Source: Squalus acanthias
Lineage: Eukaryota
Assembly (NCBI GenBank): GCA_030390025.1
Contig: CM059449.1
Span: forward strand, 36,518,001 to 36,582,000
Direction: 5' to 3'
DNA length: 64,000 nt
Shown here: positions 1 to 64,000 of the stretch, piece by piece
How positions within the stretch are numbered: position 1 is the first letter of the stretch
Layout of the letters: the number at the start of each line of letters is the position of its first letter
Program-made: the position numbers and the translations under genes
Notes under the pieces: model-generated
Told to the model about the DNA's origin: nothing
The model's database searches: none
Seen by the model: the letters and a program-made list of their open reading frames with translations, nothing else

Positions 1-42
1 CCGCCAACCCTCACCTCACTCCCCCCACGACCCTATTTGCAG

Positions 43-932
43 CAAACTTGGTGGCCATTGTGATTCTCTCCCGGGGAAAGTGCGGCCTCTCGAAATGCAT
101 CACTATTTATCTGGTGGCCATGGCAGCGGCAGATCTACTGGTCCTGATATTTGATGTGGTCCTGTATGAGATGAATGAAATTTATTTCCCGGATTCATTC
201 CTGGACTACACTCCGGTCTGCAGTATGAATTTGTTCCTGATTTTTGCTTCTATTGAATGTTCTGTCTGGTTTACTGTCGCTTTCACCTTTGATCGATTTG
301 TCGCCATCTGTTGCCAGAAAATAAGGACTCAATATTGCAACGAAAAAACTGCGGCGGTGGTTGTAGCAACCATATCGGGGCTGAGCATTTTGGAAAACAT
401 CCACATTTACTTTACTTTAGAACCTCGCGTAATAATTGACAATTTACCGTGGTTCTGTGATGTGAAATCAAGCTCCTATACTGTACCTATATGGGTTACA
501 TTCATATGGCTTGACATAGTTTTAATGCCTTTTATTCCGTTTCTTTTGATTCTGATATTCAATGGTCTCACCATCCGGCACATTCTTCTGACAAGTAGAA
601 TCAGGAGGGGTCTCCGAAGCAGCGACAGTGACCCAGAAATGGACAACCGCAGGAAATCCATCGTTTTACTGCTTGTCATATCTGGCACTTTTATAATGTT
701 ATGGACGGTAACTTTTATTCATTATATCTGTGCACAAATTACAGAAATTCAATATTTGCACACAGATTACAGTAATCCTTTCACCATCATGGAACAAACT
801 GGATATATGCTGCAACATTTGAGTTCCTGCACAAATACCATTATTTATGCAGTGTCCCAGACTAAATTCAGAGAGGAGTTAAAGATTCTGATTCAATATC
901 CCCTGTCTCTAATTACTAAGTTAAGGAAATAA
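43..932 (+). CDS. Terminal coding exon of a GPR139/GPR142-like orphan class A GPCR (N-terminus/TM1 start lies upstream of the window)
   Basis: Acceptor ctatttgcAG at 41-42, then an open frame to TAA 930-932. TM2 YLVAMAAADLLVL, TM3 SVWFTVAFTFDRFVAIC (DRF), TM7 CTNTIIY and helix 8 KFREEL. The SVW-x-T...DR...C pattern resembles GPR139/142. Confidence 0.88.
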
Positions 933-5764: not shown

Positions 5765-6254
5765 TAGACAGATAGAAATCCAGATACAGCGACAGAGAGA
5801 CAAAAAGTAGGAGAGAGAGAGAGTGACAGTGAGAGAGACAGATAGAGAGACNNNNNNNNNNNNNNNNNNNNNNNNNNNNNNNNNNNNNNNNNNNNNNNNN
5901 NNNNNNNNNNNNNNNNNNNNNNNNNNNNNNNNNNNNNNNNNNNNNNNNNNNNNNNNNNNNNNNNNNNNNNNNNNNNNNNNNNNNNNNNNNNNNNNNNNNN
6001 NNNNNNNNNNNNNNNNNNNNNNNNNNNNNNNNNNNNNNNNNNNNNNNNNNNNNNNAGAGATNNNNNNNNNNNNNNNNNNNNNNNNNNNNNNNNNNNNNNN
6101 NNNNNNNNNNNNNNNNNNNNNNNNNNNNNNNNNNNNNNNNNNNNNNNNNNNNNNNNNNNNNNNNNNNNNNNNNNNNNNNNNNNNNNNNNNNNNNNNNNNN
6201 NNNNNNNNNNNNNNNNNNNNNNNNNNNNNNNNNNNNNNNNNNNNNNNNNNNNNA
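5765..6254. repeat. (AG)n/(AGAC)n microsatellite running into assembly gaps
   Basis: gagagagagaga/gacagataga runs next to N blocks 5852-6055 and 6062-6254. Confidence 0.8.
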
Positions 6255-7454
6255 TGAAACGGTGTATATGCAGCTTATAAAACTGACCTTTAGTGATCCG
6301 ATTGTCTAATTGAAGGGATTGTCATAAACAACTGCGACCTGCACAGGTTGGGCCACAACATCTGGAAATTGCCCTCAGCAGAGGATCGGCGCAGTAACCG
6401 ATCAGAATTACATTTCCAGATCAGAAGGATCATCCTACCTGTTCCCCTCAGGGAGGCACCTTTCCATGGAGAGACCTGAATGAGCAGCACCGTTATCTAT
6501 TAAACAATTTTTGGTAGATGTTCACTGCGCCGCTCTGGTGTGAACCTGCCCCTGTGGATCACCGGCCTTGTCACAGAAACTGCCCGCTTTTTATTCCCAT
6601 TGGAGGCAACTCCGGTTTTACACCGGGCGGCAGGTTGGAAATCTACCCCGCTGTGTCTAAACCAATAGCAGAAGTTTCCCTGGAGTCATTTGTTGACCCT
6701 GTTAATCACCAACAGCAATTTATAGGCTTATCTCCTGGGGTTCCCCCTCCAGCTGTCCCAGCCTCCATTCTTGCTGCAGATTATTGCTTTCTGGGCAAAG
6801 CCCACCGCCCCCCACCTTCCCTGCCTGCAGCTCCCAGTGCACTTCGGCCCATCCCCGCCTCAGGAGCCCAGCCTCAGACTCACCCTTACCGCCAGGCCGC
6901 ATTATTTAAACCCCCTCCCCCCACTGCGCTACATTTTAATGACCTTTCCTCACAACACTTCCCCACTCCTCCTCTAATATCCCAAAGTGACCCGTCCTCT
7001 CATTCCCCAAAAGAGCAAAGAGAGAAGAGAAGCAAAAACACACTGAGGCTGAGAGGGTAATAGCTCAGCACAGAGCAAAAGTTCAGCTCAGAAACCGAGC
7101 AGAGCCATCACCACAGTGAAAGGGAACAACAATGAGAAAGCAGAAACAAAGAGTGAAGGAACAGCAAGTCATTCAAATAAAGAGTCTGATATCTGAAAGT
7201 GGGTGGTGAATGTAGATTAATCCATTCTCTAACCCAGATAGACTGGCAACAGCGATTAATTTGTTGTCCAACTCTGAGACCGTGCGGTGTGTGTGGGGTG
7301 TGGGTATGTGGTGGAGATAGACAGTAAGAAGCAATGGGAAAGATATATAGAGAAAGCAACTGTGTGAGAAGCACACACTGAGGGGTAGGTGCATATTATG
7401 GAAGAGTCAGAAGATAACAGAAATGGACTAAATGAGAGCAAGAATGATTAACAG

Positions 7455-7669: not shown

Positions 7670-7815
7670 CTAGAGAATAGAATAGAAAAGCAGGGGGGTA
7701 ATGTGCAATTTGGTTCAGTCATTCATTTCATTGATCTCTTTCTGCTCTCTATCTCTGTATGGGTGAGTGTTGCTATTATTGATGGATTGTTCAGTATCGC
7801 TGTTCATGTCCTTAC

Positions 7816-8082
7816 CCCAGGAGACTGTCTTCCCACCCGGCAAGCTGCTGTGCTCAATAAGACAGGAGTATTGTTTCCCATCATACGGATCAAATTCAAG
7901 GGTTGTCGTGAGTTGATACGTCCCATCTTCATTGGGTAATAGCCCAGTAGATTTAGTCTCAGGGACATGTTCTCCATTCTTCAACCAGGCCACGCTGATG
8001 GATTGCGGGAAAAATCCAGTCACAATGCAGTGGAGAAACCAACGATCACCAGCCCTGGCAATAACTGAGACCTCAGGGAAAA
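7816..8082 (-). CDS. MHC class I-like heavy chain, alpha3 (C1-set Ig) exon
   Basis: AG/GT-bounded 267-bp phase-1 exon: VFPEVSVIARAGDRWFLHCIVTGFFPQSISVAWLKNG...LLPNEDGTYQ...YSCLIEHSSL. These are C1-set motifs (C..TGFFP, W, PN.DGTYQ, YSC..EH.SL). Confidence 0.95.
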
Positions 8083-8310
8083 CTACATGATAGAACGACA
8101 GTTATATTCTACTTCAATAAAAGTCGCATATTTCACAATAGACTGAAGGAAGTCATTTTAACTTTTGCCACTAATGTAAAACAGGTGATGTCGGATCAGC
8201 CGCCTGTTAAAGGAGAATGGGGAGAGGTTTATAACGGAAGCTGATCCAATATCGCCAGTTCTACACTATCGCCAAACTTTAAAATTACTCCAAGTTTCTT
8301 TTGAACTTAC

Positions 8311-8586
8311 CTTGTCTGGTCAGTGATGCTTTTCCAATTGAATAGTATGTCCTCCATAAATCCACACAGTCCTTTTCTAACAAGCTCTTGAAATAAAGGT
8401 TCATCTTTGTTTCCTTATCCCATTTCACTTTGAGGGTCTGAGCTACTGGATCATGTACGGTCCAAACCAATTTGTCTTTATCGAAACTAAATGCGTATCT
8501 TCCATCATAAGCCAACTTCAAAACCCCTACACTAGGATTGGCATCATTCAGCTCACAGCCAAACAGTCCTTGAATGTAGTGAGTAC
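8311..8586 (-). CDS. MHC class I-like heavy chain, alpha2 exon
   Basis: 276-bp phase-1 exon (ttctAG...G|gtaag): THYIQGLFGCEL...AYDGR..F..DKDKLVW...AQTLKVKW...LEKDCVDLWRTYYSIGKASL. The C101-C164 pair and the H..Q...GC and AYDG motifs are present. Confidence 0.95.
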
Positions 8587-9509
8587 CTAGAACAGTAATT
8601 GAATCGATCAATAGATACATAATTATCACATCTAGTCACACCAAATATAAGAATTTCAGTTATTTTCTAGTCACTCTTTCCATTACTAAGGGTAGAAATT
8701 GAGTTTAGTGTCTAAAACAAGGTTCATCACACAGAAACATATAATTTACAGCACAGAAAGAGAACAATTGGCACCAAAGTTAAACAAAAGCTGTCTTCTG
8801 TAATATTCTTGCTATATTAGATGCTTAGAACTGCATGAATGACCCCAACAGTGTCCTAACCAATATCTTCTGTAAGTCAACATCAAGTCCCTGATGTTAT
8901 ATTCAAAGCCCCATTTAACAAAATACAGACGACGTGAAATTGGTCTTTTCCAGTAGTGCGAAATGGGCTCATAGCGAATCAGCAGCCAATTTTACACTCC
9001 AACCATTGTTCTTCTATTAACTTCAAAGATGTAAAATGGGCTGTCAATTCACCATGGCCCCAATGGAAGGGAAGATTGGGCGGAGTGTGTAATGGGTGGC
9101 CGAGCCAATATCACTCATTTTACACTGTCACCAAAAGTTAAAATTCACCCTCACATATGCAACACCACAGGAAATTGAGTAGAAAATTTAAAAATCTTAC
9201 ATCTGTGTGCAATTCCTGTCCACAAAAGCATACTTCCTATTGTCATATTTCTATTACATTTATGTTAACATTTCCATTTATAAATTCCTATGTCCACCTT
9301 TATAATGGAAGCTGCCACCGTAAGCTGGTCATGCTGTAATTACACCCTCCCACCGGTGGTGGCACTTTCGGACTTAGCTTTGCATTTCCCAGAGAAACTG
9401 CTGTGCTCCAAAAAATTCTACTTCTCAGCTTTCCAAATTAATAAATGTTGGTATTTAACTATAAATCTATCTATATTATATTAGAAATGTTATGTACTAC
9501 CTGTCCACA

Positions 9510-11490: not shown

Positions 11491-12084
11491 CGGGCAGAAA
11501 TTAGGCTCGCCATGGGTGAGTACGCGCTGTGTACTCACCCGTGGACGGAACGAACGTGCCGGTTTCTTGCATGCACTGCGCATGCGCGGGAAACCGGCAC
11601 TTCCGTTCCCCTGAAAGAAGGAGTTCAGAGGTCGAACGCGCACGCCGGAGGGCCAGCGCGTTCGCCTCGCACTTCGGGTTTTTTTACAGGTTCCTACGTG
11701 AGGGTAAGCACGGAGAAGATGCACATTGAAAAAGGAGGCGCAATGCCTTCTTTTAACAAGGTAAGTGTTGATTTTATTAACATTTAAACATTTTTTTCAC
11801 AGATTTATCTTTTTTAATTACTTTCAAGAAAGCCAAGTTTAGTTTTAGCCCTGTTAAAAAGTATAATTAACTTTTTCAAAAATTAAAATTTTTATTTAAA
11901 ATTGTTATTTTATTAAAAATTAATGTAATTTATAGTTATTTTAAAAATATGATTTTTTTTTTAATCTGTAGTTTTAGGGATGTTTTGGGGCTGATCTGTA
12001 TTCATAGATTTGACAGGTCTTCTTAGGAAGGTGTGCGTGCGATCCTTGCACCCGCGAGAAGCCAGGGAGCCGAATTTCTGGCCC
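11491..12084. mobile_element. PIF/Harbinger-like MITE
   Basis: TIRs cGGGCAGAAATTAGGCTC / GAGCCGAATTTCTGGCCC, 3-bp TSD AAT/AAT, subterminal hairpin at 11512-11542, AT-rich core. Confidence 0.7.
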
Positions 12085-13240: not shown

Positions 13241-13403
13241 TTGATGTTTGGTTGTTCTGCTGCAACCATCTATCAACCTGTCCCTTGATGAGTCCGTGGA
13301 AACCAGCTTGAGTTATTGTGTATTCGTCCCAGTAACTCTTCTCAAATGCTTCTGCCATCCATTGCTGTCTTGGAACAGTTATTTCCATATTTTTGTCGTA
13401 ATA
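13241..13403 (-). CDS. MHC class I-like heavy chain, 3' part of alpha1 exon (5' part and leader lost in the gap)
   Basis: YDKNMEITVPRQQWMAEAFEKSYWDEYT...DRWLQQNNQTS|gtgagt shows the P..WM, YWD and N86 NQT glycosylation motifs. Its phase-1 donor matches the alpha2 exon. Confidence 0.9.
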
Positions 13404-13903
13404 NNNNNNNNNNNNNNNNNNNNNNNNNNNNNNNNNNNNNNNNNNNNNNNNNNNNNNNNNNNNNNNNNNNNNNNNNNNNNNNNNNNNNNNNNNNNNNNNN
13501 NNNNNNNNNNNNNNNNNNNNNNNNNNNNNNNNNNNNNNNNNNNNNNNNNNNNNNNNNNNNNNNNNNNNNNNNNNNNNNNNNNNNNNNNNNNNNNNNNNNN
13601 NNNNNNNNNNNNNNNNNNNNNNNNNNNNNNNNNNNNNNNNNNNNNNNNNNNNNNNNNNNNNNNNNNNNNNNNNNNNNNNNNNNNNNNNNNNNNNNNNNNN
13701 NNNNNNNNNNNNNNNNNNNNNNNNNNNNNNNNNNNNNNNNNNNNNNNNNNNNNNNNNNNNNNNNNNNNNNNNNNNNNNNNNNNNNNNNNNNNNNNNNNNN
13801 NNNNNNNNNNNNNNNNNNNNNNNNNNNNNNNNNNNNNNNNNNNNNNNNNNNNNNNNNNNNNNNNNNNNNNNNNNNNNNNNNNNNNNNNNNNNNNNNNNNN
13901 NNN
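13404..13903. other. 500-N assembly gap
   Basis: Run of N. The round length suggests a scaffolding gap of unknown true size. Confidence 0.95.
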
Positions 13904-14769: not shown

Positions 14770-15314
14770 CTACGGTTCGAAATGGCGCAGTTTAAGAGGA
14801 GCAGCATTTTTACCCTCATCGCACGTTCCAGGATAGAAATAAGGAAAGAGTTTCTCAGTGAATGTGTCAGTGAAAGTGTAGAGATTGGACATATCATCAG
14901 CATTGTAAAAGCTCACCTGTCCTCCCTCATAGTCCAGGTAAACTCCGATGGTCCTGGGCTTCACACTCGGGGTCAGTGGGACATGTGGGATTTCAACAGC
15001 TCTATATTCATTCCCATTTCTCAGCCACACAGCCCAGTTTCCATGTTCTGGCCCCAGGTATATCTGTCCCTTCCTATTGGCTGACTCTCTGGCCACACCC
15101 ACATCCCACTTCGTCTTGTTCCCGACCTCCACCTCCCAGTAGTGTTTCCCTGATGTGAATCCCTGTGACCCCAGGACACAAAGACACGTATCGAATCTCT
15201 CCGGGTTATCAGGAAGTTGTAATCCTCTGTTGCTGGGACTCACACTCGTCCGGTCCTCAGACAGGATGAGCTTAAGATGCGCTGTGTTTGGGTCCAGGGT
15301 CAGTGAGGCTGGGA
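14770..15314 (-). CDS. TRIM gene exon 6: PRY-SPRY (B30.2) domain
   Basis: Acceptor tttcccccAG. [13 protein letters not shown]...PERFD...[18 protein letters not shown]...WDVGVA...[16 protein letters not shown]...[12 protein letters not shown] stop. Confidence 0.95.
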
Positions 15315-15434
15315 CTGGGGGAAATATAAATGACATCACGTTAAATATTTTAGACAGAGGAAGATGGACGGACACAGGTTAATATCTGATGTCTGTAGAA
15401 CAGGACTCTGCACCCAGTCCATAATTTCTGTATC

Positions 15435-20200: not shown

Positions 20201-20668
20201 GCGAGGGTTTACCTATCAGGAAATGATGAACAGGTTGGGTCTCTTTTCTCTTTCTCTTGAAAAGAGATGGCTGAGGGGTGACCTAATAGGGGTCTTTAAA
20301 ATTATAACAGGTTTTGATAGAGTAGACACAGAGAGAGTGTTTCCACTTGTGGGGAAGAGCAAAACAAGAGGCCATCAAAATAAGATAGTCACCAAGAAAT
20401 CAAATAGGGAATTCAGGAGAAACTTCTTTACCCAGAGAGTGGTGAGAATGTGGAACTTCCTACCACTGGGAGTGGTTGAGGTGAATAGTATAATTGCATT
20501 TAAGGGGAGGCTACATAAGTATATGAGGGAGAAGGGAATAGAGGGTTCTGCTGATAGAGTTAGATGAGGAAGGATGGGAGGAGGCTCGAGTGGAGCATAA
20601 ACGCCGACAGGGACTGGTTGGGTCGAATGGCCTGTTTCTGTGCTGTATATTCTGTGTAATTCTATGTA
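17250..20668 (+). mobile_element. Degenerate CR1 LINE (ORF1 esterase plus partly deleted ORF2) in TRIM intron 5
   Basis: VVVVHVGPNN (SGNH block), FLTQYV...LGNSDHN (APE), WQTANVTPIFKKG..PGNYRPVSLT (RT), FRRNFFTQRVV.MWN. Many stops and internal deletions. Confidence 0.9.
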
Positions 20669-31965: not shown

Positions 31966-32376
31966 CAGTTTATACAGCGAGGGTCTGTGTGTAAAAGCGA
32001 GAGAGTGAGCTACAGAACGAATCCCTGAGATTCCTGAGGATTGGAGGAAAATGTCTGGCTCCCATAGGGTGAGAGGACACTGGGAATACCGGGAATGGTG
32101 TGAGCACCCGCCAGGAATATGATTCCCACATAGTTATATATAACTTAAATATTGTAAAAAAAACTGGTACCCTTTAGTTATTTAACCTAAATATTGTAAT
32201 GAAACTGATTCCCCATTATTATTTAATGTAAATATTGTAAATCTCTTTCCCTGTAGTTATTTTATTTAAATACTGTAATGAAACTGATTCCCAGTTCTCC
32301 ACTCCCTCTATCCCACGCTCCACACCACAGCCTCCAGGGTGAGAGTTGGGGAACATCCCCTCCCATGTCCCCTTAC

Positions 32377-32790
32377 CTTGTACCGTCTCACTGCATCCCG
32401 CACCGGCAGGAACTTGTGGTTTGAATGTGTGGGAGAATCTACACAACTGGCACAGATCAGAGTCTCGTCCTGCTCACAGAACATTATCAGCTTCTCCTCG
32501 TGTTCCTCACAGTGAGACCGGCCCTTCTCCGGCTTCAGGTTCAGCTCCAGCTGCCGAGCTTTCTCGGAGAGATTGGCCAACACCCTGCTGCTGGTGTAGT
32601 TTCTCCCGGGCAGAACCACCCGACATTCCGGGCAGCATGCGGACTGCTCCTGGTTTTCCCAACACTTCTGGATACAGGATTTACAGAAGTTGTGCTCACA
32701 GTCCAGTCGCACCGGCTCCACAAACAGAGACAGGCAGACGGAGCAGGTTAAATCCTCGGTCAGGGTGAAGACCTGTTTATTGACGGCCAT
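32377..32790 (-). CDS. TRIM gene exon 1: C3HC4 RING + B-box 2 (TRIM39/TRIM69/A33-like E3 ligase; joined CDS 1458 bp, 485 aa)
   Basis: MAVNKQVFTLTEDLTCSVC...CEHNFCKSC...CPEC and CEEH...FCEQD..LIC..C....HSNH, donor AAG|gtaagg. All six exons join in frame without stops. Confidence 0.95.
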
Positions 32791-32824
32791 CTCAGTTGCT
32801 GCTCCTTATTCTGTCGCTCACTTT

Positions 32825-33330: not shown

Positions 33331-34304
33331 GATGCGGAGATGCCGGTGTTGGACTGGGGTGGACAAAAATGAGAAGTCGCACAACACCAGGTTATAGTCC
33401 AACAGTTTTATTTGAAATTACGAGCTTTCGGAGCGCTGCTCCTTCGTCAGGTAAAGTGAGGGAACACAAATCAGTTACAAAGCATATATAGACAGAGAAC
33501 AATGTGTCTGCAGAGATACAATCCGTCAGGGAGGCATTACATCAAAGACACAGCACGGCAACCTCTGCAAGACATGCCAGATCATCAACACAGATACCAT
33601 CATCACACGTGAGGACACTACCCACCAGGTACATGGTACATACTCATGTGACTCGGCCAATGTTGTCTACCTCATACGTTGCAGGAAAGAATGCACCGCA
33701 GCATGGTACATCGGCGAGACCATGCAGACACTGAGACAATGTATGAACAGACACCGCGCAACAATCGCCAGGCAGGATTGTTACCTCCCAGTCGGGGAAC
33801 ACTTCAGCAGTCAAGGACATTCAGCCTCGGATCTGCGGGTTAGCATTCTCCAAGGCGGCCTTCAAGACACACGACAACGCAAAATCATCGAGCAGAAACT
33901 GATAGCCAAGTTCCGCACCCATGAGGACGGCCTCAACCGGGATCTCGGTTTCATGTCACGCTACAGGACGTGACTAGAGTCCAGACTAGAGTCGTCGTTG
34001 TCTTGTTCACAGATGTGATTTCCAGTTTTTAAAAAAAGTAAAAAACTTAACTGCAGACTGCAGCATTTGACACGTTGGCCCCCCTGTGACCCCACCTCAT
34101 TGTCTTAGCTGTATTCTGCTGTGTCTTTGATGTAATGCCTCCCTGACGGATTGTATCTCTGCAGACACATTGTTCTCTGTCTATATATGCTTTGTAACTG
34201 ATTTGTATTCCCTCACTTTACCTGACGAAGGAGCAGCGCTCCGAAAGCTCGTAATTTCAAATAAAACTGTTGGACTATAACCTGGTGTTGTGCGACTTCT
34301 TATT
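33331..34304 (+). mobile_element. Penelope-like element (GIY-YIG 3' part) with an inverted pseudo-LTR
   Basis: NVVYLIRC...WYIGET..LRQCMNRHR...VGEHF...EQKLIAKFRT..GLNRD. 33373-33555 is an inverted copy of 34117-34299. TSD TATGTTTATTAC at 33319-33330 and 34305-34316. Confidence 0.9.
34219..34256 (+). ncRNA. Minimal hammerhead ribozyme-like motif in the Penelope pLTR (inverted copy at 33415-33455)
   Basis: CTGACGA, then stem II A-GGAGC/agc/GCTCC, then GAAA and the palindromic AGCT. Confidence 0.7.
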
Positions 34305-34939
34305 TATGTTTATTACACTAGCCGCTAAAGTTATACTTTAATCACTCATGGTTAATGTCGTTCCCGTCACTTATTTCCTTGCACAAGCATTTCTCATAGA
34401 TAATACTCAGGCACTAAAAGCACAAGATAAGCCAGGCTTGTATCTGTCGTGGCCGTGTGCCCACGTTGGCATCTGCTGTAGAGTTTTGGAGTGGTGAATA
34501 GAACGGCCGGCAGCCACGTGGGTTTGAATATGTTTGGGCTGGAAGGGCTCCTGCTCCTGTTCCCAGTCCCAGTCTGAACTCGTCAAATATCAAGAGCCTC
34601 AAAGTCCGGAGTGAAAAAATACCATTTGACTCATCAAGCCTGTCCATCCAACGTCAGGATGTGATTATTCTATCATGGGTATGAGGGAGAAAGGAATAGA
34701 AGGATATGCTGATAGGGCGAGATGAGGAGGGGGGGAGGAGCCTTGTGTGGAGCATAAACTCCGGCATGGACCAGTTGGGCCGAATGGCCTGTTTCTGTGC
34801 TGTACATTCTATGTAAATCACAGAAATTGGTAAAAAATGTGGATTAAAAACCATTGAGTGTGAAAATGTTCTGAGATGCAGCAAATTGCACCATTTCTAT
34901 GTAAATATGCCAACGTAGGGGGCAAACATTGCCCAGTGT

Positions 34940-52800: not shown

Positions 52801-53887
52801 TGCCTCTGGTTGAACAGATGCCCAGTTTTGACTGATCAGATCACTGCCAGCTGGTGACTGAGCAGTGGTTTGTTCAGTGGCTTTGCCAGAACTTGATGTT
52901 ATCGGCAGTAATACCCTGGGCTCTGGAGCAGCTCATTTCCTGATTGGTACATCAGGGGTTGTTTCCACTGAAGCTGAGATTTAATAAGAGTTTTTTAAAT
53001 AATTGGTCCAGGGAAAGCCCATCTCTCCCACAACTGGGAGATGCTCTTTCAGATGTGGCTTCTTCTCCCTGGAGAGAAGAGGAACAGACAAAAACAAGAA
53101 CAGACAGAAAGATATATTTATTGTGATATTTAAAGGAATCATTTTTCACCCCTCTGAAATCAGACTGGGTTCAGAAGCCGAGAGCTTTCAGGCAGGTTTG
53201 AAGGTTGAGAAAGTTGTAGAGAGGTTCAAACATTCTTCGAAAGCTGGAAGGTGTTTTAACGCTGAATTTGGAAGCCTTATGGTAGAGTTTAGCTAATCAG
53301 AAGCAAAAGAGTGCAGCAGTGAAATAGAACCGAGAATTCCAGCACTGACCAGGATAGCTAAAGCTAGAAACTGACTGAAGTAAGATGGCGATGACCGTGG
53401 ATGATGACCTGCTACAGGTCTCCCAGAGGAAGGTGGAACTGCCCAATGTCACAGCAGCCACCCTCCGACATATCTTGTGCTGATATCCCGAAAGGACAGT
53501 CAGACCACTAGAAGCTGAGCAGTGATTCATTGAATATGGACTGTAAATGTAGCCTTGCCCAGTCTGTGAGTTACTGTTACAGTGCCGAGATATTGTGAAC
53601 ATTACTGTTGAACCTCCAGTGCTTTAGGTTCTCTGATCACTTTGCTCTGACTATAAAGTCCAACTGAACCTGATGATGGGATTAATTGTGATTTGCAGCT
53701 GTTAAACAGGTTAGTGCTGGTTAATGCACCCTGTCTGGTTTATACTAAGATGACGGATCAACTGGGAGTTAATTTACATCCAGTGTTGTCCCACTGTTGA
53801 TTGATCCGTTTAGGTTAACTCGCCTAAATTTTTCTCTTTGATCTATTTATCCACTTTCTTTTGAAAAGCAAATCCACGTTGTCCAGA

Positions 53888-54298
53888 GGCCTCAGCACCA
53901 TGCTGCACCCACACTGTCCATAGGCCTCAGCACCATGCTGCACCCACACTGTCCATAGGCCTCAGCACCATGCTGCACCCACACTGTCCATAGGCCTCAG
54001 CACCATGCTGCACCCACACTGTCCATAGGCCTCAGCACCATGCTGCACCCTCACTGTCCATAGGCCTCAGCACCATGCTGCACCCTCACTGTCCATAGGC
54101 CTCAGCACCATGCTGCACCCACACTGTCCATAGGCCTCAGCACCATGCTGCACCCACACTGTCCATAGGCCTCAGCACCATGCTGCACCCACACTGTCCA
54201 TAGGCCTCAGCACCATGCTGCACCCACACTGTCCATAGGCCTCAGCACCATGCTGCACCCACACTGTCCATAGGCCTCAGCACCATGCTGCACCCTCA
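53888..54298. repeat. 35-bp minisatellite, ~11.5 near-identical copies
   Basis: Unit aggcctcagcaccatgctgcacccacactgtccat. Confidence 0.95.
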
Positions 54299-54994
54299 CC
54301 TCTTGCAATATGTCTACAGTATCACTCACTTGTTCATACATTCGAATGTATTTGCTCAATATCACCATGGAGACCACTTAAAGTCTCTCTTTCTAAACAT
54401 TATTTGTATATATAGATTTTCATTGTGTGATATCTTCATTAAAAACAGAAGTAGGATCCTGACTCTTGTCCCCTCAATCCTTCTGAAACTTCAACATTGA
54501 CAATATAGGCTGGGTGAGCATTCCTTTATGGTTTTCTTAATGTTTCCAACATTCACAGTCGAGTGGATGAAATCACGTCCTTCTCGGGATCAAACATTGG
54601 GAGTCGCACTAACATTTCAATTCTGAATGGATAGATGTGGGATCATTTTCAGGTGGGTGAGGCGGGGGTTTCTTGTTTATGTCGAGTGTCAGAGAGGATC
54701 CGCCCCGTTTTGAGCTGATTTTTCGGTTGTATTCCAGTATAACCGGAACAACTTGTCCAAAATCATAAAGGATAGCTGATGGAGTTTTATATTTTATATC
54801 CGTATTCTTTCCATCCAGATTATGCCATTGGCAATACCGGACTCGGATGGTTATAATATTTAATAGATCGACAGGGATGTATCCTTGTATTGTTTGTTCT
54901 AATGATCTGCTCGAGATGTTTACTATTTGTTGTTGATTCACTAGGTGAACACGGTCTCGAGGCAATCAATTGCTCACATCTACTTGTTTCTCAG

Positions 54995-56220
54995 TTATAA
55001 CTCTCAGGAAAGGATAAACAGGCTGGGCCTTTTTTTTCTTCAAAAGATAAAGCTGAGGGGTGACCGAATAGAGGTGTTTAAAACTCTGAAAGATTTTGAT
55101 AGATTGCACAGAGAGAGAGAGGCCCGTATTTTCCGATAGCAGGCTTCCCGCGGGCGGAGGACTGCGATCTGGAAAAATCTGCGCCCTTACCTGAGGGCTC
55201 CCGGGACGCGCACAGTTCCGATGCTGGGCCTCTCCAAACTGCCGGTGTGCAGGGCCCAGGTATCCCAGAGGCGCAGGTAGTTCGCAGCGTCCCTGGGATC
55301 ACGTGGGCCATGGGGAGCCAATCACAGAAGGGAATCTCCATTCATACATTTGACAGGAAGACCTGTCAAATATATGAATGGAGATCATCCCAAAAACATA
55401 GTAAAACTTTAAATAAATTTCAAAAAAAAAAATCACATTTTTAAAATGACTTGAAATTACAATAAATTACATATACATATACATAAAATGTATATTAAAC
55501 AAAAATTTAATTTTTTGAAAAAAATAATTCAAGTATTTTGTGGGGCTAAAAATAAACGTAACTTTTTTTAAAGCATTTTTAAATGATAAATCAGTGAGAA
55601 CATTTTTTAAAACTTTTTTCTACTCTTATCCTGGTAAAAGCAGGCCTTATGCTTGCTTTTACCAGGCGTAAGAATTCTAAGGGTTTTCTGCGGGCGGAGG
55701 GTCTCCAGAAAGCGGAACTATCTGCCTGCAGAGGCCCTTCTCCAGGGCAGCCGGAGGTTCTGTCAAGAGCATTCTTGACAGATCGGAATTGTGGGTTTTC
55801 AGCGCATGCGCTGTGCATGCCTGAAACCGGTATTTCCAATGTCCCTACGGGTGGTACACAGCGCGTACACACCCATAGGGATCGGAATATCTGGCCCAGA
55901 GTGTTTTCACTTGTGGGGAAGAGCAAAACTAGAGGCCATCAATATAAGATAGTTACCAAGAAATCAAATAGGGAATTCAGAAGAAACTGCTTCACCCAGA
56001 GTGGTGAGAATGTGGAACTTGCGAGGAGTAGTTGAGGGGAATAGTATAGACGCATTTAAGGGGAAGCTAGATAAGTATATGAGGGAGAAGGGAATAGAGG
56101 GTTCTGCTGATAGAGTTAGATGAGGAAGGATGGGAGGAGGCTCGAGTGGAGCATCAATGCCGGCATGGCCTGGTTGGGCCGAATGGCCTGTTTCTGTGCT
56201 GTATATTCTGTGTAATTCTA
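54995..56220 (+). mobile_element. CR1 3' fragment interrupted by a MITE
   Basis: LRGDRIEVFK..FDR | RVFSLVGKSKTRGHQYK, tail attctgtgtaattcta. Confidence 0.85.
55121..55897. mobile_element. PIF/Harbinger-like MITE
   Basis: Ends GGCCCGTATTTTCCGAT / ATCGGAATATCTGGCCC, TSD AGA/AGA, subterminal hairpin at ~55845-55878. Confidence 0.72.
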
Positions 56221-57929
56221 TTCTGGCCAGAGTTTTTCAGTCCATAATAGTCTCGATTTCTTCCAGAGCCAGTCCTATGATGTCCTGTGCCACCTCCCGA
56301 CTGTCCGTATAGCCTCTCTGGGGATATTTTTAAATTTGTCTTCCTGAATTTCCAAATCCTTAACTGATGCAGTATTCCAACCAGTTGCTGTACCGAATCC
56401 CCCCATTCCCAACTTGTCTCATAGGGACCTTTTCCCTTCCCTTCTCACTCTCTTCCTCCTCTGGATCATTCTGTGGTTCCTTACAGTCCAGGGCATGTTT
56501 TTTATATCAGTGCAGTAGATTGGCAAATTCCCAGTCCGGGATCAAGGTTTGTTCTTGGATCCTGAATTCAAAGAATCCTTGCTTGAATTCTTGAAATTGA
56601 TTGTTGCTTACTTCCTCTTGTCCAGTTCTCCTGTCACAGTACCTCGAAGTCTGAGCTTCCCTTCATACTGCAGTATCTTGTCCTATGATCAAACTTTGGC
56701 AGACCGTTCCAATTGGTCTGGACTATCGGTGCCCATTTTTGTAAATCAATAACCAGTGGTTTTACCACATATTATACATTCTGAATTATAATACATAATA
56801 CTCCTGGGTCAGGACTCCCCAATCAGTGGGCCAAATTTTATTTCTGGTCAATCGCTTACCACTTTCGCATTGTCCCTTTTGATAAGGTTTTGTTTGGCCC
56901 ACATGGTCCCACTTACCCTCCATTTGTCATTTGGTGTCCTTAGTTCTAACCGTTTGGACCCAATGTCTCCATTACTGTGAACGGTGCTCTCCACTTGGGA
57001 TTCAGTGAGTGGGAAGGATTACCGAACCATTTTAACAGAACCTTATCACCAGCTAGGTACAAATAGTCCATATGTGTAAGATCCTGGTTTCCTTTTATTG
57101 TATCAGCAGCCCTTCCCAATTGGTGGGCCATCCACCCATTCATTTCCCTGATGGCCGCCTTCAGATGAATGACAGACTCGGTTTGATCAACTACTCCCTT
57201 CAGAGAGTCCGACAACCCCTCGTACATGAGGTGCTCTGGGCGTCTCGTACTTCGCCCTGTCATTAGGGTCTCAATCCCAGAGCGCAGCAAGGAGTGGATC
57301 TGCTGGCCAGCGAGGCTAATGGCATCTTCACATCCCAATCCCTGCCATTTATTGCTCCAAATTTTCTGGAAATTATTTACAAAGTGCAGTTTGCTCTTTC
57401 CACTGTCCCTGGTGACTGTGTGAATTGTGGAACTGGTTTTATGTCCAACAAATTCATTCTTTGAGCCATGACCTCTTTTGGCGAACCTCACTGAGTGGTT
57501 TATTTTCCGACCAGAGCTTTAGCAATGGGGATAGCTTGCACCCATTTCGAAAACTAATCCGCTCCAAGTAAAATATATTTGTTTCCTATTGCGGTTGTAG
57601 TTTAAGGCTCTATCCAATCAATTTGTAATGAGCACCATGGTCCCTGTTTTAGTCGGGTCACAGGGTGGGTGGGGTTCCTTTATTTTGTAGTGATCATATT
57701 TACATGGGCGCGTGTGAGACATTGGTTCCAGCGTATTGTTCCATTCATTGCCATTTCTGGCCAACAGCCCAAGTCTCTCACCCACTGTAAGGTTTTCACT
57801 GCTGTTCAGCTGTTGAGGCATTGTGAGCTGTGTCCAGTAATATGGCCCAACTCTCTCAACCCTCCTTCGCTATTGGCAAATGGGTTGTATGGAACGCAGT
57901 TTCTTGTTCTACGGTCAACTTATTGAAAT

Positions 57930-60030
57930 CATAAAATGAAACAACATAGAAGGAGGCCATTGGGCCCATCGTGCCTGTGCCGGCTCTTTGGTCGAGCTAT
58001 CCAGTTAATCCCACTCCCCTGCTCTTTCCCCATAGCCCTGCACATTTTCCCCTTCAAGTATTGATCCAATTGTCTTTTGAAAATTACTATTGAATCTGCT
58101 TCCACCGCCCTTTCAGGCAGTGCATTCCAGATCACAACAACTCGCTGCTTAAAATACTGTCTTCTCATCTCCCCCCTGGTTCTTTTGCCAATTATCTGAA
58201 ATCTGTTTGCTCTGGTTACTGACCCTCCTGTCAGTGGAAGCAGTTTCTCCTTATTTACTCTCCCACCTCGATCAAATCTCCACTTAACCTTTTCTGCTCT
58301 AAGGAGAACAACCCCAGCTTCTCCAGTCTATCCCTGTAACTGAAGTCCCTCATCCCTGGTACCATTCCAGTAAATCTCTTCTGCCCCCTCTCCTAGGCCT
58401 TGACATCCTTCCTATAGTGTGGTGTATTGAACACAATACTCCAGCTGGGGCCTAACCTGTCTTTATAAAGGTTGAGCATAACTTCTTGCTTTTACATTCT
58501 ATTCCTCTATTAATAAAGCCAAGGATCCCATCTGCTTTTTAACAGCCTTCTCAACTTGTCCTGCCCCCTTCAAAGATTTGTGTCCATGCACCTCATGTCT
58601 CTCTGTTCCTGCACCCCCTTTAATTTTGCACCATTTAGTTCATATTGCCTCTTCTCACCAAAATGTATCAACTCACACTTCTCTCTGTTAAATTTCATCT
58701 GCCATGTGTCTGCCCATTTCACCAGTCTGTGTGTGCTCCTGAAGTCTGTTACTATCCTCCTCATTGTTCACTACATTTGAGTTTCGTGTCATCTGCAAAC
58801 TTTGAAATTATGCCCTGTATAGCCAAGTGTGAGGTGATACATTTTGGTAGGAAGAATGAGGAGAGACCATGCACACTAAACAGTACAATTTTAAATGGAG
58901 TACAAGAACAGAGAGACCTGGGGGTACTTGTGCACAAATCTTTGAAGGTGGCAGGACAGGTTAACACGGCAGTTAATAAACCACATGGGATCCTGGGCCT
59001 CATAAATAGACACTTCACCTGAGGAAGGAGCGATAGTTCCGAAAGCTTGTGATTTCAAATAAAACTGTTGGACTATAACCTGGTGTTGTGCGACCTCTCA
59101 TAAATAGAGGCAGAGAGTACAAAAGCCAGGAAGTTCTGCCAAACCTGTATAAAACGCTAGTTCAGCCCCAGCTTGTGTCCAATTCTGAGCACCACACTTT
59201 TGGAAGGACATGACGGCTTTGGAGAGGGTGGAGATATTTACTATAATGGTTCCAGGGATGAGGGATTACAGTTCCGGGGACAGACTGGAGAAGCTGGGTT
59301 GTTCTCCTTGGGTCAGAGAAGGCTAAGAGGAGATTTGACAGAGGTGTTTAAAAGCATAAAGGATTTAGATGGTGTAAATAAAGAGAAACAGTGCTGAGAG
59401 GTTGTTTCCCCTGGCTGGCGAGTCTAGAACTAGGGGGAATAGTCTCAGAATAAGGGGTCGGCCATTTAAGACTGAGATGAGGATGAATTTCTTCACTCCG
59501 AGGGTTGTGAATCTTTGGAATTCTCTACTCCAATGGGCTGTGGATGCTGAGTCGTTGAGTGTATTTAAGGCTGAGATAGATTTTTTGGACTCTCGGGGAA
59601 TGAAGGGATATGGGGATCTGGCGGGGAAGTGGAGTTGAGATCGAAGATCAGCCATGATCTCATTGAATGGCGGAGCAGGCTCGAGGGGCCGTATGGCCTA
59701 CACCTGCTCCTAATTCTTGTGTTCTTAGTTTCCAATGGCTGAAGGCTCGATCACGAGAGGGCACAGATTTAAGGTGGTTGGCAAACGAACCAGAGGCGAC
59801 ATGAGCAAAAACATTTTTACGTAACGTGTGGTTAGGATTTGGATTGCTCTGCCTGATAGGGTGGTGGATACAGATTCATTGTAGCCTTCAAAAGGGAACT
59901 GGATACATACTTGAGGGGAGAGAATTGCAGGGATATGGGGTACGAGCGGGGCAGTGGGACTAACTCGATTGCTCTTTGAAAGAGCCAGTGCAGACTCGAT
60001 GGACCGAATGGCCTCCTTCTGTGATGTTCT
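57930..60030. mobile_element. Back-to-back CR1 fragments (minus 57930-58820, plus 58822-60030) with further nested insertions
   Basis: Both fragments start in the RT region (ISKFADDTK / KCEVIHFGRKN) and run outward to their own 3' tails. A third CR1 tail is inserted at ~59390-59728. Confidence 0.85.
59011..59096 (+). mobile_element. 86-bp Penelope-derived insertion consisting almost only of the hammerhead-like motif and tail
   Basis: CTGAGGA-AGGAGC gata GTTCC-GAAAGCTT. Perfect 12-bp TSD CTCATAAATAGA at 58999-59010 and 59097-59108. Confidence 0.8.
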
Positions 60031-62244: not shown

Positions 62245-63840
62245 CGATAGCAAAATACTGCGGATGCTGGAAATCCGAAATAACAACAGAAAACGCTGGA
62301 AAAACTCAGCAGGCCAGGCAGCATCCGTGGAGAGAGAAAGAGAGTTAACGTTTCAGGTCGATGACCTTTCGTCAGAACTGGGAAGAGCCGGAAATCAAAT
62401 AGATTTAAGGCCAGGGTAAAGCTGGGAAAAGGGGGAGGGGATAAAGATACAAAGGGGGAGATGAAGAGACAATGGCCCAGAAATTGATCTCGCTCTGTTC
62501 CCGCGGGGGTAAGCCTTTCCCGCGATGTCTCACCTCGCTTATGCTTTTTCTGATCCAGCTCGCACGAAATTGATGTTCCAGACATCAGCTGTGCTGGGCT
62601 TGCGTATCCCAGCGGCGTAGTTAATTCGTGCGAGCTGTGGGATCACGTGACTCAGTTAGAGCCAATGGCAGCACACCATCTTCCATTCATAAGTCTCACA
62701 GCATGGCTGAGAGACTTATGAATCTTACACCCCCCCAAAATAACAGCTAAACCTCAATTAAATTTAAAAAAAAACCCATCACATTAATAAAATAAGTATA
62801 GTTAATTAAATTAACCATTTTAAATAAAAAATTAAATTTTTGAAAAAATTTAAAATCTTTTAAAAAGTTATAAAAATAAACTTACCTGTCTTTAAAGTCT
62901 ATAAAAAAGATATACCTGTAAAAAAAAATTCAAAAAAATACTTAATTCACTACTTACCTTCTTAAAAGCGGGTCTTACTCCTCCTTTTTACATTTCCAAA
63001 ATCTTCAGTACTTACCTGCGCGTCCAAAGCATGAAGTGCACAGCGTGCGCGCAGCCTGTAGCGCGCACGCGATGCACTCCGGCCCCGCCCCCTTTTCGGA
63101 AGAGCAATTGCCGGTTTTCAGCGCATGCGCAGGGCATGCAGAAAACCGGCAATTGGAGTGGGAATACGCGAGAGTATGCAGTGCGTACTCTCGCGTCCCG
63201 GGATCAAGTTTCGGCCCATTAAGAGATATGCAAGGCTAGAGGTGGTGTTAATGTGACAGATTAAGGCTGAAAGAAGTGTGAAATCCACTGGCAGAATGAA
63301 GGACAGCTGCCAGCTTCTAGGAGGAAAAAAAATGTGGGGGGGTGCAAATAAAAGGGTGGAAAAAATAAAATATAAATGTGATTGGAGCTGAGGTTATGAT
63401 CTAAAATTGTTGAACTCGATATTGAGTCCAGAGGGCTGTAGCGTGCCTAAACGAAAGATGAGGTGCTGTTCCTCGAGCTTACGCTGCGCTTCCGTGGAAC
63501 AGTGTAATAGGCCGAGGACGGTGAGGTCAGAGTGGGAGTGGAGCGGTGAATTAAAGTGACAGGCGACCGGGAGCTCGGGGTCCCCCTTACGGACTGAACG
63601 GGGGTGTTCCGCAAAGCGGTCACCCAATCTGCGTTTGGTCTCCCCAATGTAGAGGAGACCACATCGTGAGCAGCGAATACAGTATACTAAATTGCAGGAA
63701 GTACAAGTAAATCGCTGTTTCACCTGGAAGGGGTGTTTGGGGTCCTGGACAGTGGGAAGAGGGGAGCTATAAGGGCATGTGTTGCATCTCCTGCGCGTGC
63801 ACGGGAAGGTGCCGGGCGAAGGGGAAGGGGTGCTGGGGAT
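62245..63840 (-). mobile_element. Penelope-like element with an intact GIY-YIG segment and a hammerhead-like pLTR (62345-62375), split by a MITE
   Basis: ORF 63394-63723 FTCTSCNLVYCIRC...LYIGETKRRLGDRFAEH...VACHFN...EQHLIFRLGTLQPSGLN. The minus strand reads CTGACGA-AAGGTC atc GACCT-GAAACGTT. Confidence 0.88.
62474..63217. mobile_element. PIF/Harbinger-like MITE
   Basis: Ends GGCCCAGAAATTGATC / GATCAAGTTTCGGCCC, near-TSD AAT/ATT, subterminal hairpin at ~63167-63196. Confidence 0.72.
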
Positions 63841-64000
63841 GTACCTGACCTGGGAGTGTTTGATGGGACAGTGTAGAGGGAGCTATCTCATGATTGCCCA
63901 TGATGTCCTCTCCAATTATTGCTCTGATGGTCCCAACACTTGATAACCCCGATGATCGCTCCTCTTACGGCTTTTGACGCCTGTACCTGTTACAGGGAAT

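What the first reader, a model, noticed from the sequence alone, without database searches (positions are those of the whole stretch)
54300..57925. Fossil retrovirus-like element with a furin site and Gly-rich fusion peptide early in a long env
Seen (minus strand): integrase core and C-terminal motif. About 490 bp later comes RRKRVRREGKR|SL*DKLGMGGFGTATGWNTASVKDLEIQEDKF, a heptad-like REVAQDIIGLALEEIETIMD and, across the CR1 insertion, LVNQQQIVNISSRSLEQTIQGYIPVDLLN followed by a Cys-containing region. Known: a short pre-cleavage subunit with a long post-cleavage ectodomain is the paramyxo/pneumovirus F layout reported for lokiretrovirus envs, unlike gamma-type env. Inference: a rare env-bearing basal retrovirus or Gypsy-type relic in a cartilaginous fish.
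Basis: partly seen in the sequence, partly recalled or inferred. Interest (0 to 1): 0.7.

Follow-up and report, generated by a model that had tools for sequence, protein, structure and literature searches.

The report
Decayed Loki-like retrovirus remnant
This is a long-dead scrap of a retrovirus-like element, probably in a shark or ray genome: its integrase is most like that of the lokiretroviruses, a group not reported from such fish in the papers searched, while the envelope gene that seems to follow it is too eroded to identify.

Summary
The integrase is real (57832-56879, minus strand, three frames, 8 stops in 316 codons). Both halves score best against lokiretrovirus-type integrases, and the core groups with them (95/86). 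Its branch is long, AU tests do not reject other placements (p 0.08-0.11), and RT, which defines the group, is absent. The quoted env strings exist but lie in three frames. Position, length and strand composition fit an env remnant, and several motifs resemble Loki Env by eye. No test reached significance: Loki-Env profile, Pfam, PDB, 1.8 billion representatives; AlphaFold pLDDT 34. The furin motif is chance-level (59% of shuffles) and spans a one-base length difference against three runs' contigs. The 'fusion peptide' is not hydrophobic (0.12 against 1.4-1.65). The insert is nested: a CR1-type end split by a palindromic element. Near-identical sequence (93-100%) occurs in runs of three organism labels. 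No gag, RT, TM or LTR. Verdict: probably an old lokiretrovirus-like relic in a cartilaginous fish, a host class the defining paper screened without a hit. The scan has already noted F-like Env retroviruses elsewhere in this genome.

The parts
57927..58333 (.). CR1-type repeat end that truncates the element upstream; no RT, RNase H, protease, gag or LTR found in the window
Evidence: 75-80% matches elsewhere in the window; Loki pol and gag, foamy and epsilon pol hit only the integrase; depth over a thousand times that of the relic.
57266..57832 (-). Integrase zinc-binding remnant and catalytic core, Loki-type (LQIDW, GNKY, VERAN, RDWDVK); 7 stops in 189 codons, about 23 residues missing, second catalytic Asp not conserved
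56879..57263 (-). Integrase C-terminal half (MTGR...P.HL; W.AP...GP, a GPY/F-type motif), two further frames
   Evidence: Pfam MLVIN_C weak, E 0.069
56461..56878 (-). Post-integrase spacer of about 140 codons, the expected place of signal peptide and F2; stops in all frames; no homology shown
   Evidence: (same A-rich minus strand as the integrase; stops counted over 56222-56878)
56428..56460 (-). Basic run RRKRVRREGKR; chance-level as a motif; contains a one-base length difference against other runs' contigs
   Evidence: (table 4)
56362..56427 (-). Gly-rich stretch with one stop; candidate eroded fusion peptide, not hydrophobic
56240..56299 (-). Heptad-like stretch REVAQDIIGLALEEIETIMD, in another frame than the Gly-rich stretch
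54995..56221 (+). Nested insert: CR1-type 3' fragment (54995-55119 and 55898-56221, contiguous in the copy at 20210-20665) split by a palindromic, MITE-like element (55120-55897); no clear target-site duplication seen
   Evidence: (folding z -12)
54609..54965 (-). 118-codon open frame (LVNQQQ...QGYIPVDLL...TPSAILYD); candidate F1 beta-domain remnant; motif resemblance to Loki Env in two competing registers, not significant
   Evidence: (P 0.067)
54300..54648 (-). Further eroded stretch with Loki-Env-like words in other frames (EMLVRLPMFD, TVNVG) and Cys residues; not significant
   Evidence: (P 0.097)
53880..54299 (.). 35-bp tandem array (12 copies) at which the trace of the element ends

Best explanation
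A 3' fragment of a lokiretrovirus-like provirus (integrase plus the eroded first part of an env) that entered the germ line of a cartilaginous fish long ago and has decayed neutrally since. It does nothing now. Shown: a dead integrase with Loki-type signatures; later CR1-type and palindromic insertions; the same sequence in runs of other organism labels. Inferred: the DNA after integrase was the env. In the live virus it would have worked as Loki Env is described: a class I, paramyxovirus-F-like fusogen cut at a basic site into a short N-terminal and a long C-terminal subunit, with fusion peptide and heptad behind the cut. Also inferred: the element was dead before those organisms diverged.
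For: Core: 5 of 238 candidates passed, the best three at E 4e-17 to 6e-11; these match published Loki IN rows by eye. Among 48 reference cores the four Loki-type ones rank 1-4 (80-100 bits), next 61. Among 121 loci the three Loki-type fish contigs rank 1-3 (92, 75, 50 bits; next 48). C-terminal half, not used to pick the references: 2 of 4 Loki-type references score 89, all 39 others 60 or less. Tree of 29 rows: sister to the four Loki-type rows, 95/86. Post-integrase and post-insert segments share the integrase's minus-strand A excess (0.24 and 0.16 against 0.19; 6% of 175 window tiles reach 0.17). The basic run lies about 140-150 codons after integrase; Loki-type Envs are cut at residue 114-139. 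Of five consecutive Loki-Env blocks, three have their best match and one its second-best in collinear order in the post-insert segment. Stop density rejects divergence of 0.05 or less (p 0.001), best fit near 0.3. Of 17 listed between-run differences in assigned frames only 4 are at third positions.
Against: No env homology test was significant: HMM of 9 Loki-type Envs against 852 window chunks; hhalign P 0.067, 0.097, 0.74; frameshift-tolerant alignment with three parameter sets, 1 of 60 to 48 of 100 shuffles as good, with the better 5' score in a non-collinear place (a degraded fish Loki control scored 310 against 17). Pfam, which holds Fusion_gly, gave no fusion family at E 1. The strongest single block match (16.1 against null 6.6 +/- 1.8) implies a different register from the collinear blocks. 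The candidate fusion peptide is not hydrophobic. The other two Loki-type C-terminal references, both from degraded contigs, scored only 48 and 34. AU tests do not reject grouping with Gypsy, foamy or gamma/epsilon (p 0.084, 0.085, 0.109), and the branch is long (2.47). Three of the Loki references were chosen as best hits. RT is absent, and PMC7947760 reports repeated integrase replacement, so integrase alone cannot fix membership.
Confidence: 0.6

Rival explanations
1. A class III (SnRV-like or other unsampled) retrovirus with an F-type env whose integrase is of the Loki/CGIN1 type through domain replacement or shared ancestry.
For: PMC7947760 reports repeated integrase swaps and Loki IN close to CGIN1. 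An unchecked scan note places another F-like Env provirus of this genome with the SnRV clade. The Gly-rich stretch differs from Loki fusion peptides. SnRV, ERV-L, CGIN1, Odin and fish foamy-like integrases were not in my tree.
Against: By eye the published SnRV IN row lacks the PW, GNKY, FSKW, VERAN, RDWD.K.PL and P.HL words that the window shares with Loki rows.
Confidence: 0.15
2. A Loki/Odin-type integrase fragment followed by DNA that never was an env (an env-less element, or unrelated sequence), the motifs being chance.
For: All env tests negative; furin motif at chance level and weak hydrophobicity. Odin elements, sister to Loki, lack env (PMC9040795).
Against: Strand composition continues from integrase through both segments but not through the insert or the downstream flank. 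Loki-Env-like words recur in roughly the right order. Odin is reported only from sea anemones.
Confidence: 0.13
3. A Ty3/Gypsy (errantivirus-like) retrotransposon with an F-type env.
For: F-type Env is widespread in invertebrate Gypsy elements (PMC13524379). The only PDB hit of the core is Ty3 (E 0.015). AU p 0.084.
Against: Gypsy-type references score 35-61 bits on the core and 23-38 on the C-terminal half. No Baculo_F or Gypsy Pfam hit was listed.
Confidence: 0.07
4. A fish foamy-like endogenous retrovirus, whose Env also has an F-like core.
For: Foamy Env is structurally related to paramyxovirus F (PMC11468914). AU p 0.085.
Against: Mammalian-type foamy integrase cores score 29 bits or less. 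A foamy Env profile gave nothing. The foamy Env ORFs fetched are about 990 aa. Fish foamy-like integrases were not available.
Confidence: 0.05

Closest known systems
Lokiretroviruses (Wang and Han 2020, PMC7947760; main text parts 1-3 of 4, supplement parts and search hits read)
   Same: Integrase signatures along both halves; gene order integrase then a candidate env with a basic site about 140 codons in; a few Env-like words in similar order.
   Different: Reported hosts are lampreys, ray-finned and lobe-finned fish, amphibians and reptiles; five chondrichthyan genomes were screened and carry no star. Integrase identity only 26-36%. No significant Env similarity; candidate fusion peptide not hydrophobic; RT, tether, RNase H, gag, TM and LTRs absent.
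Odin LTR retrotransposons (PMC9040795; passages and supplement hits read)
   Same: Sister group of Loki, also by integrase.
   Different: Reported from sea anemones only and without env; not compared by computation here.
F-like Env retroviruses noted by this scan in the same genome (e1-7806250; Ig-head family e1-7806701 and repeats)
   Same: Same host genome; F-like Env or Loki comparison.
   Different: No shared short words with this relic in three look-ups, so a different or far more decayed family; their claims were not tested here.
Foamy virus Env and errantivirus F-type Env (PMC11468914, PMC13524379; passages read)
   Same: F-like fusogen carried by a retroelement.
   Different: Their integrases score far lower against the window; foamy Env ORFs are about 990 aa.

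Membership tests
Lokiretrovirus | RT groups with lokiretroviruses | not testable with these tools
   No RT in the window; no host genome held
Lokiretrovirus | Dual RNase H (tether plus RH) | not testable with these tools
   Region lost upstream of 57927
Lokiretrovirus | Loki/CGIN1-type integrase | tested here: met
   Best scores on both halves and 95/86 grouping. Caveat: AU does not exclude alternatives; CGIN1, Odin, SnRV and non-teleost Loki were not in the tree
Lokiretrovirus | Env with detectable similarity to Fusion_gly (PF00523) or to Loki Env | tested here: inconclusive
   No hit. Intact Loki-type Envs themselves reach at best E 6e-8 with PF00523, in 9 of 11; the pieces here are short and decayed, and the power of the test was not measured
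Lokiretrovirus | RXKR cleavage site about 115-140 residues into Env | tested here: inconclusive
   Basic run at the expected distance but at chance level and spanning a length difference between copies
Lokiretrovirus | Hydrophobic Gly/Ala-rich fusion peptide after the cut | tested here: not met
   Gly+Ala 7 of 22 (Loki-type 6-10) but hydropathy 0.12 against 1.40-1.65 in 9 of 9; decay may account for part of this
Lokiretrovirus | Signal peptide, transmembrane anchor, gag and paired LTRs | tested here: inconclusive
   None recognised in the frames or repeat comparisons; the element is truncated at both ends
Ty3/Gypsy errantivirus | Metavirus-type integrase and baculovirus-F-like Env | tested here: not met
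   Low integrase scores with 4 Gypsy-type references; no Baculo_F hit listed; AU p 0.084 leaves it formally open
Spumaretrovirinae | Foamy-type integrase and Env of about 990 aa | tested here: not met
   Core 29 bits or less; Env profile negative; fish foamy-like elements not tested
SnRV / class III clade | SnRV-type RT and integrase | tested here: inconclusive
   Only a by-eye comparison with the published SnRV IN row; SnRV was not recognised among the loci of three pattern scans
Gamma-type Env retroviruses | Long SU, short TM with gamma motifs | tested here: not met
   Gamma Env profile negative on all six frames; gamma and epsilon integrases 48 bits or less

The most novel reading that the evidence does not exclude
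An ancient chondrichthyan lineage of lokiretroviruses, branching outside the teleost clade, with its own divergent F-type Env. It was fixed at one locus before several shark or ray species split and was then copied along with an MHC class I / TRIM / GPCR gene cluster. It would fill the cartilaginous-fish gap in the published Loki host range and give a datable minimum age for F-type Env retroviruses in that class.
Probability: 0.3. Interest if true: 0.58.

Novelty: new member of a known kind. Interest (0 to 1): 0.36.

Why it matters
Lokiretroviruses are the sister group of the other retroviruses and carry an Env related to paramyxovirus F, which bears on where retroviral envelopes came from. 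The defining paper found none in five cartilaginous-fish genomes. An old insertion shared by several species would show that the group infected that class and would give a minimum date. This copy is a poor witness for the Env question: it is dead, partial and without a demonstrable fusogen. Younger F-like Env families that the scan noted in the same genome are better material.

Tried and rejected
Own-genome search: no genome held. Homolog search with the 5' env frame: 0 of 416 candidates. HMMER over 1.84 billion representatives with one frame read across the env region: 1 hit, caused by the CR1 insert. PDB sequence searches of three env pieces: chance hits only or none. NCBIfam: one chance hit. 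Phage collection and viral contigs searched with integrases: nothing. AlphaFold2 of the post-insert piece without alignment: pLDDT 34.5, so no fold search was run. No ESM Atlas result exists for the relic itself; a natural Loki-type Env gave Fusion_gly clusters, as a positive control only. Rfam: 0 matches in the window. Expression: no RNA holder listed; run X14 is only a guessed RNA run with patchy low depth, no evidence either way. Runs with small shares that I did not lay are not counted. No joint skipping the whole insert appears among 15 joints shown of 440, so a copy without the insert is neither shown nor excluded. Co-option of the 118-codon frame: not supported, 2 of 8 listed differences at third positions, a small and selected sample. 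Not-in-print claim: searches; ten papers hold 'lokiretrovirus' after merging versions, and none of the passages read places it in cartilaginous fish. Subscription journals and Repbase are not covered, PMC9972966 was not held, and the last 18 of 318 supplement pages of PMC7947760 and the bioRxiv supplements were not visible.

Full report
Observation. The integrase is secure. tblastn of the database hit P0006 aligns three collinear pieces, 57793-57266, 57263-56955 and 56950-56879, with E 3e-26 in the window, and P0005 extends the core to 57832. It is dead: 8 stops in 316 aligned codons, two frame changes, about 23 residues missing from the core, and the second catalytic Asp not conserved.

What the integrase is. 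A homolog search with the core passed 5 of 238 candidates, the best three at E 4e-17 to 6e-11. These match the published lokiretrovirus integrase rows by eye (PMC7947760 supplement). A profile of them retrieved fish-type contigs; one, L002, carries an env nearly matching a published Loki Env. Among 48 reference cores the four Loki-type ones score 80-100 bits, Gypsy-type 35-61, gamma and epsilon-like 48 or less, foamy 29 or less. Among 121 loci the three Loki-type contigs rank first. The C-terminal half was not used to pick references: 2 of 4 Loki-type references score 89 and all 39 others 60 or less; the other two Loki-type ones, from degraded contigs, score 48 and 34. Reference labels are mine: KoRV, MuLV and Xen-1 by match to rows, foamy, WEHV and Gypsy-type from recalled motifs and genome layout.

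Tree. A tree of the window plus 28 of the 48 cores (near-duplicates and bacterial transposases left out) puts it sister to the four Loki-type rows at 95/86, on a branch of 2.47. AU tests do not reject grouping with Gypsy, foamy or gamma/epsilon (p 0.084, 0.085, 0.109). SnRV, CGIN1, Odin and non-teleost Loki could not be included; the published SnRV row lacks most of the shared words by eye. The stop density rejects neutral divergence of 0.05 or less and fits best near 0.3, at which only about 55% of residues remain as in the ancestor. Decay can therefore explain much of the long branch, and 'basal' is not shown.

Is there an env? For: the two non-repeat segments after integrase keep its minus-strand A excess (0.24 and 0.16 against 0.19; insert -0.08, downstream flank 0.03; 6% of 175 tiles reach 0.17). 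The basic run sits about 140-150 codons after integrase, and nine Loki-type Envs are cut at residues 114-139. Of five consecutive Loki-Env blocks, three have their best match and one its second-best in collinear order in the post-insert segment, each individually weak. By eye, SRSLEQTIQGYIPVDLL, EMLVRLPMFD and TVNVG recall Loki Env words (16 of 23 published Envs seen).

Against an env: I obtained 17 natural Loki-type Env proteins (9 of 11 aligned hit Pfam Fusion_gly weakly; the Atlas puts one among Fusion_gly clusters). An HMM of nine finds nothing in the region. hhalign gives P 0.067, 0.097 and 0.74. Frameshift-tolerant alignment under three parameter sets stays within the shuffles, while a degraded fish Loki scores 310 against 17. 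The best single block (16.1 against 6.6 +/- 1.8, one of 25 blocks) implies another register than the collinear set. Pfam, NCBIfam, PDB and 1.84 billion representatives give nothing relevant, and AlphaFold is uninformative. A furin-type motif occurs in 59% of 2000 shuffles, and the following 22 residues are not hydrophobic. The profile is narrow (mostly teleost-like, about 53% identity) and the pieces are short and decayed, so the negatives do not exclude an env; their power was not measured.

Surroundings and history. The insert is a CR1-type 3' end split by a palindromic element; the two CR1 halves are contiguous in a copy at 20210-20665. Another CR1-type end cuts the element at 57927 and a 35-bp array ends it at 54299. 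No RT, gag or LTR was found in the window. Twenty of 21 listed runs, in 8 studies, hold some of the stretch, and 10 hold half or more of its words. I laid 4 of the 21. Their listed contigs match the relic at 93-100% in organism labels B, F and H, and one contig of X16 bridges the env-side CR1 junction with 41 letters on the CR1 side, so that insertion is shared. Only 4 of 17 listed differences in assigned frames are at third positions (40 of 379 rows were shown), as expected if the element was already dead. The window also holds an MHC class I gene, TRIM pieces and a rhodopsin-type GPCR. The host class is inferred: the inserted repeat matches a Callorhinchus milii protein tail, and unchecked scan notes on this genome say cartilaginous fish.

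Mechanism. The locus has no activity today. The ancestor was most likely a Loki-like virus whose integrase inserted the provirus (shown by homology). Its Env was probably cut at a basic site into a short and a long subunit and fused membranes as a paramyxovirus-F-like class I protein; this step is inferred from position and from PMC7947760, not shown.

Comparison with print. PMC7947760 (parts 1-3 of 4 and supplement parts) lists Loki in five vertebrate classes, and five chondrichthyan genomes carry no star. PMC8922424 (passages) repeats that range. PMC9040795 (passages, supplement hits) describes env-less Odin. PMC11468914 and PMC13524379 (passages) show F-like Env in foamy viruses and errantiviruses, so the layout is not diagnostic of Loki. 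Passages of PMC11089739, PMC10435555, PMC12440569, PMC13709493 and bioRxiv 2021.11.23.469661 mention no Loki in sharks. The scan has noted other F-like Env retroviruses in this genome; they share no short words with this relic.

Verdict. It works like nothing now and descends most likely from a lokiretrovirus-like virus (0.6). Membership cannot be filed without RT, and one Env feature, the hydrophobic fusion peptide, was tested and not met. A new member of a known kind and a probable host-range extension; interest 0.36.

Noticed in passing
window 54300-54994 and 56222-57927: In run X3 relic contigs have depth about 480-535 and run into both flanking CR1 pieces, while many unique repeat-junction contigs have about 8-25; in X11 about 93-124 against 25-45; in X16 about 5 against 2-6. 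Five small runs (110-255 million letters) hold over half the words. This hints at amplification after decay, for example by segmental duplication, differing between organisms. The tool warns that depth is no copy number, so it is only a lead.
   Followed up: partly
window 7715-8635 (-): MHC class I gene exons (alpha2: Pfam MHC_I E 9e-16; alpha3: C1-set E 2e-20).
   Followed up: no
window 3-932 (+), 14770-15378 (-), 32308-32805 (-): Rhodopsin-type GPCR open frame, a PRY-SPRY exon and a RING/B-box exon of TRIM genes, suggesting a tandemly duplicated immune-gene region.
   Followed up: no
window 55120-55897: Palindromic MITE-like element with strong internal hairpins (folding z -12), nested in a CR1 end; related pieces near 1454-1985, 11492-12022 and 62577-63149.
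   Followed up: partly
window 33363-34309 and 63394-63882: A 193-nt 98% inverted repeat around a 172-codon frame, and a GIY-YIG remnant (E 4e-4); probably Penelope-like elements (label recalled).
   Followed up: no
L001 and L002 (metagenome collection): Host-derived fish-type lokiretrovirus contigs sit in the metagenome collection; L002 has degraded gag, pol and env.
   Followed up: partly
window about 5800-6260 and 13400-13900: Runs of N.
   Followed up: no
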